From Escherichia phage T7, in the sequence record MZ375256.1: a stretch of DNA of 37,111 bases, one strand, 5' to 3'. Made by a program: the position numbers and the translations under genes. Positions within the stretch are counted from its first letter, which is position 1; every line of letters begins with the position of its first letter. This document shows positions 1-37,111 of the stretch, piece after piece. The notes beneath the pieces are model-generated. The model was not told the origin of the DNA and ran no database searches. It worked only from the letters and a program-made list of their open reading frames with translations.

Positions 1-140
1 TCTCACAGTGTACGGACCTAAAGTTCCCCATAGGGGTACCTAAAGCCCAGCCAATCACCTAAAGTCAACCTTCGGTTGACCTTGAGGGTTCCCTAAGGGT
101 TTGTCTTTGGGTGTTACCTTGAGTGTCTCTCTGTGTCCCT
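1..140. repeat. Left direct terminal repeat (identical copy at 36972-37111)
   Basis: First 140 nt are repeated exactly at the last 140 nt of the window; T7-type terminal redundancy. Confidence 0.95.
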
Positions 141-5891: not shown

Positions 5892-6971
5892 ATGATGAAC
5901 ATTAAGACTAACCCGTTTAAAGCCGTGTCTTTCGTAGAGTCTGCCATTAAGAAGGCTCTGGATAACGCTGGGTATCTTATCGCTGAAATCAAGTACGATG
6001 GTGTACGCGGGAACATCTGCGTAGACAATACTGCTAACAGTTACTGGCTCTCTCGTGTATCTAAAACGATTCCGGCACTGGAGCACTTAAACGGGTTTGA
6101 TGTTCGCTGGAAGCGTCTACTGAACGATGACCGTTGCTTCTACAAAGATGGCTTTATGCTTGATGGGGAACTCATGGTCAAGGGCGTAGACTTTAACACA
6201 GGGTCCGGCCTACTGCGTACCAAATGGACTGACACGAAGAACCAAGAGTTCCATGAAGAGTTATTCGTTGAACCAATCCGTAAGAAAGATAAAGTTCCCT
6301 TTAAGCTGCACACTGGACACCTTCACATAAAACTGTACGCTATCCTCCCGCTGCACATCGTGGAGTCTGGAGAAGACTGTGATGTCATGACGTTGCTCAT
6401 GCAGGAACACGTTAAGAACATGCTGCCTCTGCTACAGGAATACTTCCCTGAAATCGAATGGCAAGCGGCTGAATCTTACGAGGTCTACGATATGGTAGAA
6501 CTACAGCAACTGTACGAGCAGAAGCGAGCAGAAGGCCATGAGGGTCTCATTGTGAAAGACCCGATGTGTATCTATAAGCGCGGTAAGAAATCTGGCTGGT
6601 GGAAAATGAAACCTGAGAACGAAGCTGACGGTATCATTCAGGGTCTGGTATGGGGTACAAAAGGTCTGGCTAATGAAGGTAAAGTGATTGGTTTTGAGGT
6701 GCTTCTTGAGAGTGGTCGTTTAGTTAACGCCACGAATATCTCTCGCGCCTTAATGGATGAGTTCACTGAGACAGTAAAAGAGGCCACCCTAAGTCAATGG
6801 GGATTCTTTAGCCCATACGGTATTGGCGACAACGATGCTTGTACTATTAACCCTTACGATGGCTGGGCGTGTCAAATTAGCTACATGGAGGAAACACCTG
6901 ATGGCTCTTTGCGGCACCCATCGTTCGTAATGTTCCGTGGCACCGAGGACAACCCTCAAGAGAAAATGTAA
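5892..6971 (+). CDS. 1.3: ATP-dependent DNA ligase
   Basis: 359-aa ORF with the ligase adenylation motif KYDGVRG. Confidence 0.95.
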   Translation: MMNIKTNPFKAVSFVESAIKKALDNAGYLIAEIKYDGVRGNICVDNTANSYWLSRVSKTIPALEHLNGFDVRWKRLLNDDRCFYKDGFMLDGELMVKGVDFNTGSGLLRTKWTDTKNQEFHEELFVEPIRKKDKVPFKLHTGHLHIKLYAILPLHIVESGEDCDVMTLLMQEHVKNMLPLLQEYFPEIEWQAAESYEVYDMVELQQLYEQKRAEGHEGLIVKDPMCIYKRGKKSGWWKMKPENEADGIIQGLVWGTKGLANEGKVIGFEVLLESGRLVNATNISRALMDEFTETVKEATLSQWGFFSPYGIGDNDACTINPYDGWACQISYMEETPDGSLRHPSFVMFRGTEDNPQEKM

Positions 6972-6978
6972 TCACACT

Positions 6979-7010
6979 GGCTCACCTTCGGGTGGGCCTT
7001 TCTGCGTTTA
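6979..7010 (+). terminator. Early terminator TE (host RNAP, rho-independent)
   Basis: GC-rich hairpin ggctcaccttcgggtgggcc followed by a T-rich tract. Confidence 0.85.
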
Positions 7011-7021
7011 TAAGGAGACAC

Positions 7022-7044
7022 TTTTACGACTCACTAAAGGAGGT
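7022..7044 (+). promoter_or_regulatory. T7 promoter phi1.5, 5' end altered at the gene 1.4 deletion junction
   Basis: tttacgactcactaaaggaggta: positions -17 to -15 read ttt instead of taa. Confidence 0.7.
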
Positions 7045-7051
7045 ACACACC

Positions 7052-7141
7052 ATGATGTACTTAATGCCATTACTCATCGTCATTGTAGGATGCCTTGCGC
7101 TCCACTGTAGCGATGATGATATGCCAGATGGTCACGCTTAA
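7052..7141 (+). CDS. 1.5: Gene 1.5 small protein
   Basis: 29-codon ORF MMYLMPLLIVIVGCLALHCSDDDMPDGHA with RBS aggagg. Confidence 0.7.
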   Translation: MMYLMPLLIVIVGCLALHCSDDDMPDGHA

Positions 7142-7161
7142 TACGACTCACTAAAGGAGAC
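7139..7161 (+). promoter_or_regulatory. T7 promoter phi1.6
   Basis: taatacgactcactaaaggagac. Confidence 0.85.
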
Positions 7162-7166
7162 ACTAT

Positions 7167-7427
7167 ATGTTTCGACTTCATTACAACAAAAGCGTTAAGA
7201 ATTTCACGGTTCGCCGTGCTGACCGTTCAATCGTATGTGCGAGCGAGCGCCGAGCTAAGATACCTCTTATTGGTAACACAGTTCCTTTGGCACCGAGCGT
7301 CCACATCATTATCACCCGTGGTGACTTTGAGAAAGCAATAGACAAGAAACGTCCGGTTCTTAGTGTGGCAGTGACCCGCTTCCCGTTCGTCCGTCTGTTA
7401 CTCAAACGAATCAAGGAGGTGTTCTGA
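7167..7427 (+). CDS. 1.6: Gene 1.6 protein
   Basis: 86-aa ORF. Confidence 0.85.
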
Positions 7428-8009
7428 TGGGACTGTTAGATGGTGAAGCCTGGGAAAAAGAAAACCCGCCAGTACAAGCAACTGGGTGTATAGCTTGCTT
7501 AGAGAAAGATGACCGTTATCCACACACCTGTAACAAAGGAGCTAACGATATGACCGAACGTGAACAAGAGATGATCATTAAGTTGATAGACAATAATGAA
7601 GGTCGCCCAGATGATTTGAATGGCTGCGGTATTCTCTGCTCCAATGTCCCTTGCCACCTCTGCCCCGCAAATAACGATCAAAAGATAACCTTAGGTGAAA
7701 TCCGAGCGATGGACCCACGTAAACCACATCTGAATAAACCTGAGGTAACTCCTACAGATGACCAGCCTTCCGCTGAGACAATCGAAGGTGTCACTAAGCC
7801 TTCCCACTACATGCTGTTTGACGACATTGAGGCTATCGAAGTGATTGCTCGTTCAATGACCGTTGAGCAGTTCAAGGGATACTGCTTCGGTAACATCTTA
7901 AAGTACAGACTACGTGCTGGTAAGAAGTCAGAGTTAGCGTACTTAGAGAAAGACCTAGCGAAAGCAGACTTCTATAAAGAACTCTTTGAGAAACATAAGG
8001 ATAAATGTT

Positions 8010-10422: not shown

Positions 10423-12234
<1,812 letters not shown>

Positions 12235-12302
12235 CAGGATTCTTGACAGTTGTTTCATATGAAGAGATTGTTAAGTCACGATAATCAATAGGAGAAATCA
12301 AT

Positions 12303-16475: not shown

Positions 16476-16742
16476 ATGTGTTTCTCACCGAAAATTAAAA
16501 CTCCGAAGATGGATACCAATCAGATTCGAGCCGTTGAGCCAGCGCCTCTGACCCAAGAAGTGTCAAGCGTGGAGTTCGGTGGGTCTTCTGATGAGACGGA
16601 TACCGAGGGCACCGAAGTGTCTGGACGCAAAGGCCTCAAGGTCGAACGTGATGATTCCGTAGCGAAGTCTAAAGCCAGCGGCAATGGCTCCGCTCGTATG
16701 AAATCTTCCATCCGTAAGTCCGCATTTGGAGGTAAGAAGTGA
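16476..16742 (+). CDS. 6.7: Gp6.7 virion protein
   Basis: 88-aa ORF from MCFSPKIKTPK. Confidence 0.85.
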   Translation: MCFSPKIKTPKMDTNQIRAVEPAPLTQEVSSVEFGGSSDETDTEGTEVSGRKGLKVERDDSVAKSKASGNGSARMKSSIRKSAFGGKK

Positions 16743-17143
16743 TGTCTGAGTTCACATGTGTGGAGGCTAAGAGTCGCTTCCGTGCAATCCGGTGGACTGT
16801 GGAACACCTTGGGTTGCCTAAAGGATTCGAAGGACACTTTGTGGGCTACAGCCTCTACGTAGACGAAGTGATGGACATGTCTGGTTGCCGTGAAGAGTAC
16901 ATTCTGGACTCTACCGGAAAACATGTAGCGTACTTCGCGTGGTGCGTAAGCTGTGACATTCACCACAAAGGAGACATTCTGGATGTAACGTCCGTTGTCA
17001 TTAATCCTGAGGCAGACTCTAAGGGCTTACAGCGATTCCTAGCGAAACGCTTTAAGTACCTTGCGGAACTCCACGATTGCGATTGGGTGTCTCGTTGTAA
17101 GCATGAAGGCGAGACAATGCGTGTATACTTTAAGGAGGTATAA
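16742..17143 (+). CDS. 7: Gp7 virion/host-range protein
   Basis: 133-aa ORF. Confidence 0.85.
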   Translation: MSEFTCVEAKSRFRAIRWTVEHLGLPKGFEGHFVGYSLYVDEVMDMSGCREEYILDSTGKHVAYFAWCVSCDIHHKGDILDVTSVVINPEADSKGLQRFLAKRFKYLAELHDCDWVSRCKHEGETMRVYFKEV

Positions 17144-36771: not shown

Positions 36772-36819
36772 ATGTTCCGCTTATTGTTGAACCTACTGCG
36801 GCATAGAGTCAAGTCCTAA
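36772..36819 (+). pseudogene. 19.5: Gene 19.5 truncated to 15 codons
   Basis: RBS gggaggag then ATG; reads MFRLLLNLLRHRVKS* whereas the canonical gene is about 49 codons; size accounting implies about 189 bp missing here. Confidence 0.5.
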
Positions 36820-36971: not shown

Positions 36972-37111
36972 TCTCACAGTGTACGGACCTAAAGTTCCCC
37001 ATAGGGGTACCTAAAGCCCAGCCAATCACCTAAAGTCAACCTTCGGTTGACCTTGAGGGTTCCCTAAGGGTTTGTCTTTGGGTGTTACCTTGAGTGTCTC
37101 TCTGTGTCCCT
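36972..37111. repeat. Right direct terminal repeat (identical to 1-140)
   Basis: Exact 140-nt match to the window start. Confidence 0.95.

What the first reader, a model, noticed from the sequence alone, without database searches (positions are those of the whole stretch)
7011..7046. Deletion scar 2: ORF-precise loss of gene 1.4 that clips the first three bases of promoter phi1.5
Immediately after the TE terminator and an RBS (taaggagacacttt) the sequence runs straight into tacgactcactaaaggagg. That is the phi1.5 promoter with ttt in place of the taa at -17 to -15. In canonical T7 the 156-bp gene 1.4 sits here and its TAA stop forms those three promoter bases, so the missing length equals the gene 1.4 ORF exactly. 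T7 RNAP contacts the -17 region, so phi1.5 may be weakened. An exact ORF excision is more typical of engineering than of repeat-mediated deletion.
Basis: partly seen in the sequence, partly recalled or inferred. Interest (0 to 1): 0.5.

Follow-up and report, generated by a model that had tools for sequence, protein, structure and literature searches.

The report
Engineered gene 1.4 deletion in T7
This is the scar of a deliberate, published CRISPR-guided deletion of the small non-essential gene 1.4 from a laboratory phage T7, which also changes two outer bases of the next phage promoter; it is ordinary and already known.

Summary
The window is a nearly complete genome-reduced phage T7. At window 7024|7025 it lacks exactly reference bases 7608-7763 (NC_001604). 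That is 156 bp, from the ATG to the TAA of gene 1.4, with no shared bases at the junction and no ambiguity in placing it.

The lost TAA was positions -17..-15 of promoter phi1.5. TTT from the gene 1.4 leader now sits there, so the net change is -16 A>T and -15 A>T, and -17 stays T. Positions -14 to +6, terminator TE, the gene 1.5 ribosome-binding site and promoter phi1.6 are untouched.

The identical junction is in dozens of GenBank records named "Mutant Escherichia phage T7 clone T7_30L ... T7_150L". These come from the CiPGr study (Yuan et al., NAR 2022), whose "cassette-gene" library deletes whole genes using Cas9 and 50-bp repair arms. Clones from transfers 10 and 20 still carry gene 1.4, and clones from transfer 30 onward do not.

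An independent chassis phage, T7-B, has the same deletion. Natural relatives without gene 1.4 look different, because they have no leftover ribosome-binding site and an intact TAA.

Published in vitro variant data suggest phi1.5 is weakened by roughly 2- to 7-fold, not abolished. The likely consequence for the phage is small. Already known; low interest.

The parts
5892..6971 (+). Gene 1.3 (DNA ligase) CDS, intact, directly upstream of the scar
   Evidence: ORF listed. It corresponds to ref 6475-7554 and is identical to the reference apart from one distant substitution in the block.
6979..7009 (+). Early terminator TE: hairpin 6979-6998 plus a T-rich tail. The annotated termination point ref 7588 maps to window 7005. 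Unchanged by the deletion.
   Evidence: Annotation. Fold (8-bp stem, -18.3 kcal/mol, z = -3.2). The simple terminator scan did not flag it because the T run is interrupted.
7011..7024 (+). Orphaned leader and ribosome-binding site of the deleted gene 1.4 (taaggagacacttt). Its last three bases, TTT, now occupy promoter positions -17..-15.
   Evidence: No start codon follows at a usable spacing (sequence). Natural phages without gene 1.4 lack this remnant.
7024..7025 (.). Deletion junction: ref 7608-7763 (156 bp, gene 1.4 ATG to TAA) is missing between these two bases, with 0 bp microhomology
7022..7044 (+). Promoter phi1.5, -17..+6, with +1 at 7039. The sequence TTTTACGACTCACTAAAGGAGGT replaces wild-type TAATACGACTCACTAAAGGAGGT.
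   Evidence: The +1 coordinate comes. Comparison with the 17 annotated T7 promoters is: -15 is A in 17/17 and -16 is A in 16/17. The log-odds score falls from 34.9 to 25.1 bits, below the weakest natural promoter, phi4.7, at 26.6.
7052..7141 (+). Gene 1.5 CDS (29 codons), intact, with its own ribosome-binding site at about 7037-7044
   Evidence: Ref 7791-7880 at offset -739. The ORF end is 7141.
7139..7161 (+). Promoter phi1.6, intact (+1 at 7156), 117 bp downstream of the phi1.5 start
   Evidence: identical to reference, score 33.8

Best explanation
[quoted passage not shown] In that method, host cells carry Cas9, a guide against gene 1.4 and a 100-bp repair template. The template joins the 50 bp before the gene's ATG to the 50 bp after its stop codon. 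Wild-type phage genomes are cut, and genomes repaired from the template lose exactly ATG..TAA and escape further cutting, so the deletion sweeps through the passaged population. Gene 1.4's stop codon doubled as -17..-15 of promoter phi1.5. The design therefore removed those three promoter bases as a side effect and replaced TAA with TTT. The expected effect is a moderate drop in phi1.5 initiation and little effect on the phage. Three reasons support this: -14..+6 is intact, T7 RNA polymerase also arrives from phi1.1A, phi1.1B and phi1.3 upstream, and phi1.6 lies 117 bp downstream. What is shown: the deletion, its exact boundaries, its occurrence in the CiPGr clone series, and its timing. What is inferred: the specific repair template used, and the size of the promoter effect.
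For: Boundaries: the deletion is exactly ref 7608-7763, the annotated gene 1.4 CDS, with 0 bp microhomology. The flanks are 100% identical to T7 with no foreign bases.

Origin: the same junction, in one uninterrupted piece, is in MZ375237-MZ375293 and OL9647xx, titled 'Mutant Escherichia phage T7 clone T7_30L', 'T7_150L' and 'T7_5t2'. The clone naming (T7_300L, L = large plaque) matches Yuan et al. 2022 (PMC9825161).

Method: that paper describes a 'cassette-gene' library with 50-bp arms designed to delete entire genes, run over 300 transfers.

Time series: T7_10L and T7_20L still have gene 1.4, while T7_30L and later clones lack it.

Whole-genome pattern: the window has seven deletions. Four have 0-bp microhomology: gene 1.4, inside gene 3.8, gene 5.3 from its ATG, and gene 18.7 up to its stop. 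Three have 1, 7 and 9 bp of microhomology: 0.4-0.6, 4.3-4.7 and 19.5. Those three are exactly the regions the authors list as undesigned large deletions.

Independent rebuild: T7-B (PV223880) has the same junction, made by 'seamless' Red-ccdB recombineering, with near wild-type plaques and a burst size of 197 vs 224.

Promoter effect (Komura et al. 2018 supplementary data, in vitro T7 RNAP, read ratios): consensus 142-188, -16 A>T 114.5, -15 A>T 115.7, and -16 A>G 21.8. Multiplying the two single effects gives about 0.46. The quadruple variant that carries the -16/-15 A>T pair implies about 0.14.
Against: The supplementary tables of the CiPGr paper (cassette sequences, accession list) are not held, so neither the gene 1.4 repair template nor the accession-to-paper link could be read directly. 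The link rests on clone names and record titles. No record in the collection is identical to the window over its whole length, so the window's own clone name is unknown. The authors say they avoided likely regulatory elements, yet this deletion removes three promoter bases, so their stated design rule does not fully describe it. The exact TTT variant of phi1.5 has no measured activity in the data I could read.
Confidence: 0.95

Rival explanations
1. A spontaneous deletion (replication slippage or recombination between short repeats, for example a CRISPR-escape event) that happens to coincide with the ORF.
For: The same genome does carry spontaneous deletions, with 1-, 7- and 9-bp repeats at their ends. 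The authors report such undesigned events.
Against: There is no shared base at the junction, and both ends fall on the first and last base of the ORF. The authors' list of undesigned deletions does not include gene 1.4. A second laboratory obtained the same junction by design.
Confidence: 0.02
2. A natural allele: the phage inherited a gene-1.4-less arrangement like that of related Teseptimaviruses, by descent or recombination.
For: Gene 1.4 is sporadic in nature. tblastn finds it in only 46 of 50,697 phage records, almost all of them T7 itself. Phages 13a, C5, JacobBurckhardt and 3A_8767 go straight from TE to phi1.5.
Against: Those natural phages lack the 13-nt ribosome-binding-site remnant and keep an intact TAATACGACTC, with the TAA supplied by the terminator tail (...GCGTTTAATACGACTC). 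The window keeps the remnant, has TTT, and is identical to T7 on both sides, whereas the natural relatives differ at several flanking positions.
Confidence: 0.01
3. The same designed deletion, but made by another route (for example the Red-ccdB/ExoCET segment engineering used for T7-B) rather than CiPGr.
For: T7-B carries the same ORF-precise deletion.
Against: T7-B has an extra T>A at -14 that the window lacks. T7-B also has a different, larger deletion upstream, which puts its junction at record position about 6127 compared with window position 7024. The window shares its other scars and most substitutions with CiPGr clone T7_150L: 99.97% identity in one block over 34.7 kb.
Confidence: 0.02

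Closest known systems
CiPGr genome-reduced T7 clones (GenBank MZ375237-MZ375293, OL9647xx; Yuan et al., Nucleic Acids Res 2022, PMC9825161)
   Same: Identical gene 1.4 junction. The same 563-bp 0.4-0.6 deletion and the same deletions in 3.8, 4.3-4.7 and 5.3. T7_150L matches window 1-34666 at 99.97% in one block.
   Different: No listed record matches the window end to end. Relative to T7_150L, the window has two further deletions (229 bp in 18.5/18.7 and 189 bp at 19.5) and about ten substitutions, including G>T at +1 of phi10.
T7-B chassis phage (PV223880; mBio 2025, PMC12153263)
   Same: An independent 'seamless' deletion of gene 1.4 with the same ATG-to-TAA boundaries, leaving the same remnant before phi1.5.
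   Different: It was made by Red-ccdB recombineering of cloned segments. It carries an additional T>A at phi1.5 -14, and its set of other deletions differs.
Natural Teseptimaviruses without gene 1.4 (13a, C5, JacobBurckhardt, Salmonella phage 3A_8767)
   Same: TE is followed within a few bases by phi1.5 and gene 1.5, showing that gene 1.4 is dispensable in nature.
   Different: They have no leftover gene 1.4 ribosome-binding site, and phi1.5 is complete because the terminator tail supplies TAA. Relative to them, T7 has a 169-bp insert (ribosome-binding site plus gene), of which the engineered deletion removes only 156 bp.
Refactored T7.1 (Chan, Kosuri and Endy 2005; DQ100054)
   Same: It deals with the same problem: T7 genes and promoters physically overlap, as with the gene 1.4 stop and phi1.5. 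The record appears among the hits. The rationale is from my own knowledge of that paper.
   Different: T7.1 separates overlapping elements and keeps them all, including gene 1.4. Here the gene was removed and the overlap was sacrificed.

Membership tests
Designed whole-gene deletion of the CiPGr 'cassette-gene' type | Deletion ends coincide with the gene's boundaries | tested here: met
   Ref 7608-7763 equals the annotated gene 1.4 CDS
Designed whole-gene deletion of the CiPGr 'cassette-gene' type | Clean join of wild-type flanks (50-bp arms), with no repeat at the ends and no foreign bases | tested here: met
   0 bp microhomology, and the flanks are 100% identical to T7
Designed whole-gene deletion of the CiPGr 'cassette-gene' type | Appears in phage passaged on the cassette library and is absent from the starting phage | tested here: met
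   T7_10L and T7_20L have gene 1.4. T7_30L and later clones carry the junction.
Designed whole-gene deletion of the CiPGr 'cassette-gene' type | A synthesized cassette whose repair template joins ref 7607 to 7764, with a guide inside gene 1.4 | not testable with these tools
   The supplementary tables with cassette sequences are not held
Spontaneous repeat-mediated or CRISPR-escape deletion | A short direct repeat shared by the two ends | tested here: not met
   0 bp here, against 1, 7 and 9 bp at the three deletions the authors call undesigned
Natural gene-1.4-less Teseptimavirus arrangement | TE tail runs directly into an intact TAATACGACTC with no gene 1.4 leader | tested here: not met
   The window keeps taaggagacacttt and has TTT at -17..-15
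T7 RNA polymerase promoter (class II, phi1.5) | Core recognition and initiation region -14..+6 matches a known T7 promoter | tested here: met
   Identical to wild-type phi1.5 from -14 to +6
T7 RNA polymerase promoter (class II, phi1.5) | A at -16 and -15, as in natural T7 promoters | tested here: not met
   Both are T. Among the 17 T7 promoters, -15 is A in 17/17 and -16 is A in 16/17. The stretch remains A/T-rich.
T7 RNA polymerase promoter (class II, phi1.5) | Initiates transcription with T7 RNA polymerase | not testable with these tools
   There are only indirect published in vitro values for related variants

The most novel reading that the evidence does not exclude
The clipped promoter is not a neutral side effect. 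Under this reading, reduced phi1.5 firing next to the terminator, or loss of the small hydrophobic gp1.4, gives a measurable fitness change. That change helped this allele fix by transfer 30 and shaped later changes at other promoters in this lineage (phiOL towards consensus, phi10 +1 G>T). Nothing here excludes this, but Cas9 pressure alone explains the fixation.
Probability: 0.07. Interest if true: 0.25.

Novelty: already known. Interest (0 to 1): 0.08.

Why it matters
It matters little beyond annotation. It identifies the window as a published, engineered, genome-reduced T7, and it explains one of its scars. The one useful lesson concerns phage genome design. In T7, a deletion that is 'seamless' at the ORF level can still alter a promoter, because the gene 1.4 stop codon is part of phi1.5. 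Two laboratories made the same cut. Natural phages without gene 1.4 show the arrangement that keeps the promoter whole.

Tried and rejected
- The consensus terminator scan found nothing at TE because the T run is interrupted. I used the reference annotation and a fold instead.
- I looked for a record identical to the window over its full length, and none was listed. The closest for the first 34.7 kb is T7_150L.
- A search of papers by accession number found nothing, and the CiPGr supplements are not held.
- The PhageMaP preprint does not mention gene 1.4 in its main text.
- The exact TTT variant of the promoter was not in the stored part of the Komura data, so I bracketed its effect from single and combined variants.
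- The 49-codon ORF from GTG 6992 that now reads into gene 1.5 was rejected as a gene. Its start lies inside the terminator stem and has no ribosome-binding site.
- A simple design rule for how many bases were kept before the next gene does not fit the four designed deletions: 27, 19 and 30 nt for three of them.

Full report
**What is in the sequence.** The surrounding 2.5 kb is 100% identical to many phage T7 records. The whole window aligns to the T7 reference NC_001604 as eight collinear blocks at 98.0-99.98% identity. It is therefore a nearly complete T7 genome, 37,111 bp against 39,937 bp.

**The deletion.**
- A pairwise alignment across the site shows one clean gap.
- An explicit walk from both sides shows the left flank matching up to window 7024 (ref 7607) and the right flank from window 7025 (ref 7764).
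- This leaves 156 bp missing and no base shared between the two ends.
- The reference annotation places the gene 1.4 CDS at exactly 7608-7763, TE at 7588 and the phi1.5 start at 7778.
- The deletion is therefore the ORF from the A of ATG to the last A of TAA. Its placement is unambiguous because the bases on either side of each end differ.

**The promoter.**
- With +1 at ref 7778 (window 7039), positions -17..-15 are ref 7761-7763, which is the TAA stop of gene 1.4.
- In the window those positions (7022-7024) are TTT, the end of the gene 1.4 leader.
- Since -17 is T in both versions, the net change is -16 A>T and -15 A>T. Positions -14 to +6 are unchanged.
- Among the 17 annotated T7 promoters, -15 is A in all 17 and -16 is A in 16 (phi4.7 has T).
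- A simple log-odds score built from those 17 falls from 34.9 to 25.1 bits, just under the weakest natural promoter, phi4.7, at 26.6. This score measures departure from the family, not activity.

**What is untouched.**
- The TE hairpin at 6979-6998 still folds (-18.3 kcal/mol, z = -3.2).
- Gene 1.5 (7052-7141) is intact with its own ribosome-binding site.
- Promoter phi1.6 (+1 at 7156) is intact.
- The orphaned gene 1.4 ribosome-binding site is not followed by a start codon at a usable distance.
- Because 156 is a multiple of three and genes 1.4 and 1.5 share a frame, a mechanical ORF now runs from a GTG inside the terminator stem into gene 1.5. It has no ribosome-binding site, and I do not regard it as a gene.

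**Where it comes from.**
- A 101-bp probe across the junction matches in one uninterrupted piece only in records titled 'Mutant Escherichia phage T7', among those sampled: MZ375238-MZ375293, OL964740/48 and PV223880/82.
- Wild-type T7 records match the same probe in two pieces 156 bp apart.
- The MZ3752xx records are clones named T7_10L, T7_20L, T7_30L, T7_150L and so on.
- This naming is that of Yuan et al. 2022 (PMC9825161), who describe T7_300L and use 'L' for large plaques.
- Their method, CiPGr, passages phage on cells carrying Cas9 and a pooled plasmid library. Each 200-bp cassette has a guide and a repair template with two 50-bp arms.
- One library ('cassette-gene') is designed to delete entire genes.
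- T7_10L and T7_20L still carry gene 1.4, while T7_30L and later clones carry the junction. The deletion therefore arose during the experiment.

**The whole-genome pattern agrees.** The window has seven deletions relative to the reference.

| Deleted region | Size | Microhomology at junction |
|---|---|---|
| Gene 1.4 | 156 bp | 0 bp |
| Ref 11254-11545, inside gene 3.8 | 292 bp | 0 bp |
| Ref 16483-16820, from the ATG of gene 5.3 | 338 bp | 0 bp |
| Ref 37055-37283, ending at the stop of gene 18.7 | 229 bp | 0 bp |
| 0.4-0.6 | 563 bp | 1 bp |
| 4.3-4.7 | 1019 bp | 7 bp |
| 19.5 | 189 bp | 9 bp |

- The three deletions with microhomology are the three regions the authors list as large deletions they did not design.
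- These seven deletions, plus 20 bp lost in each terminal repeat, account for the whole length difference of 2,826 bp.
- The window is closest to T7_150L, at 99.97% in one block over 34.7 kb, but has two more deletions.
- No listed record equals the window end to end.

**Independent confirmation that this is how engineers cut this gene.** T7-B (PV223880) was built by a different route, 'seamless' Red-ccdB recombineering of cloned segments (PMC12153263). It has the same junction, plus a T>A at -14. Its plaques are comparable to wild type, and its burst size is 197 against 224. This argues that neither gene 1.4 nor a fully intact phi1.5 matters much under laboratory conditions. That phage carries other deletions too, so the argument is indirect.

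**Comparison with nature.**
- Gene 1.4 is rare. tblastn finds it in 46 of 50,697 phage records, nearly all of them T7 itself, with a few relatives at 60-66% identity.
- Close relatives 13a, C5, JacobBurckhardt and 3A_8767 have no gene 1.4.
- In them the terminator tail runs straight into the promoter (...CTGCGTTTAATACGACTCACTAAAGG), so the TAA at -17..-15 is supplied by the terminator's own tail and no ribosome-binding-site remnant is present.
- The engineered scar differs from the natural arrangement by exactly the 13-nt remnant and the two changed promoter bases. This rules out a natural allele.

**How much is phi1.5 weakened?**
- T7 RNA polymerase reads -17..-13 through its AT-rich recognition loop (stated in PMC10138996).
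- The supplementary data of Komura et al. 2018 (PMC5937735) give in vitro RNA/DNA read ratios for promoter variants, shown in the table below.
- A/T swaps in this stretch are therefore mild compared with A>G.
- Multiplying the two single A>T effects predicts about 46% of parental activity.
- Dividing the quadruple variant by the product of its other two effects predicts about 14%.
- These are single-barcode measurements in the class III consensus context, and the exact TTT variant was not in the stored data. The 15-45% range is an inference, not a measurement.

| Variant | Read ratio |
|---|---|
| Consensus | 142-188 (the authors' mean 169) |
| -2 T>A, as in phi1.5 | 161 and 138 |
| -16 A>T | 114.5 |
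| -15 A>T | 115.7 |
| -16 A>G | 21.8 |
| -17 T>A with -16 A>T | 83.7 |
| -6 A>G | 49 and 46 |
| -16 A>T with -6 A>G | 22.5 |
| +2 G>A | 76.4 |
| -16 A>T with +2 G>A | 57.0 |
| Quadruple: -16 A>T, -15 A>T, -6 A>G, +2 G>A | 2.93 |

**Expected consequence for the phage.** The effect should be small. Only the 29-codon gene 1.5 lies between phi1.5 and phi1.6. T7 RNA polymerase also enters this region from phi1.1A, phi1.1B and phi1.3, which are all intact in the window. That it reads through TE is established T7 biology and was not tested here.

**Verdict.** The feature is a known, published engineering scar, so its novelty is 'already known' and its interest is low. The only mildly instructive point is that an ORF-precise deletion in T7 is not neutral at the regulatory level, because the gene 1.4 stop codon is part of phi1.5. 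The authors state that they avoided likely regulatory elements, yet this cut alters one.

Noticed in passing
window 20516 (promoter phi10, +1): The start base of the major capsid promoter phi10 is T instead of G (TAATACGACTCACTATA-T-GGAGA). The reference and sibling clone T7_150L both have G. T7 RNA polymerase strongly prefers G at +1, so this could lower or shift capsid-gene transcription in this heavily reduced clone.
   Followed up: partly
window 385 (promoter phiOL, +1): phiOL has A>G at +1 relative to the reference, which moves it towards the class III consensus. T7_150L has this change and also A>G at -11, giving a perfect consensus. This is possible adaptive tuning of the leftmost T7 promoter in the passaged lineage.
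   Followed up: partly
window 10486-10536 (junction at 10514|10515): The 292-bp deletion inside gene 3.8 (ref 11254-11545) fuses the first 10 codons of gene 3.8 in frame to 6 linker codons and then to gene 4A ([22 protein letters not shown]...). The primase/helicase can therefore be made with a 16-residue N-terminal extension. Sibling GenBank records annotate the protein from that upstream ATG.
   Followed up: partly
window 1321, 12240-12246, 36803-36811: Three other deletions carry 1, 7 (TTCTTGA) and 9 (ATAGAGTCA) bp of microhomology: 563 bp in 0.4-0.6, 1019 bp in 4.3-4.7 (which also removes promoters phi4.3 and phi4.7), and 189 bp at 19.5. They match the regions the CiPGr authors call undesigned large deletions.
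   Followed up: yes
window 14432|14433 and 34666|34667: Two further deletions have zero microhomology. One is gene 5.3 from its ATG to 19 nt before its stop, which keeps the gene 5.5 ribosome-binding site. The other is 229 bp ending exactly at the gene 18.7 stop, inside gene 18.5, which disrupts both spanin genes.
   Followed up: partly
window 1-140 and 36972-37111 (terminal repeats): Relative to the reference, the left end lacks an 18-bp stretch (ref 99-116). Two single bases (ref 30 and 34) are missing from both terminal-repeat copies. The right-end alignment stops at ref 39880, so the 18-bp loss there is inferred from the length accounting. T7_150L does not share these differences fully. 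They could be real changes or an assembly effect at the genome ends.
   Followed up: no
L004 (PV223880, T7-B) 751-770, corresponding to window 7025: The independently built T7-B chassis has the same gene 1.4 scar plus T>A at phi1.5 -14, a position that is T in all 17 T7 promoters. It may be a construction error or a selected change, and it is not discussed in the passages of the paper I read.
   Followed up: partly
L006-L009 (13a, JacobBurckhardt, C5, 3A_8767) against L003 7595-7763: Relative to natural relatives, T7's gene 1.4 and its ribosome-binding site look like a discrete 169-bp insert sitting between the TE tail and phi1.5, bounded by TA/TAA on both sides. It may be a small gene cassette gained by T7 or lost by the others.
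   Followed up: partly
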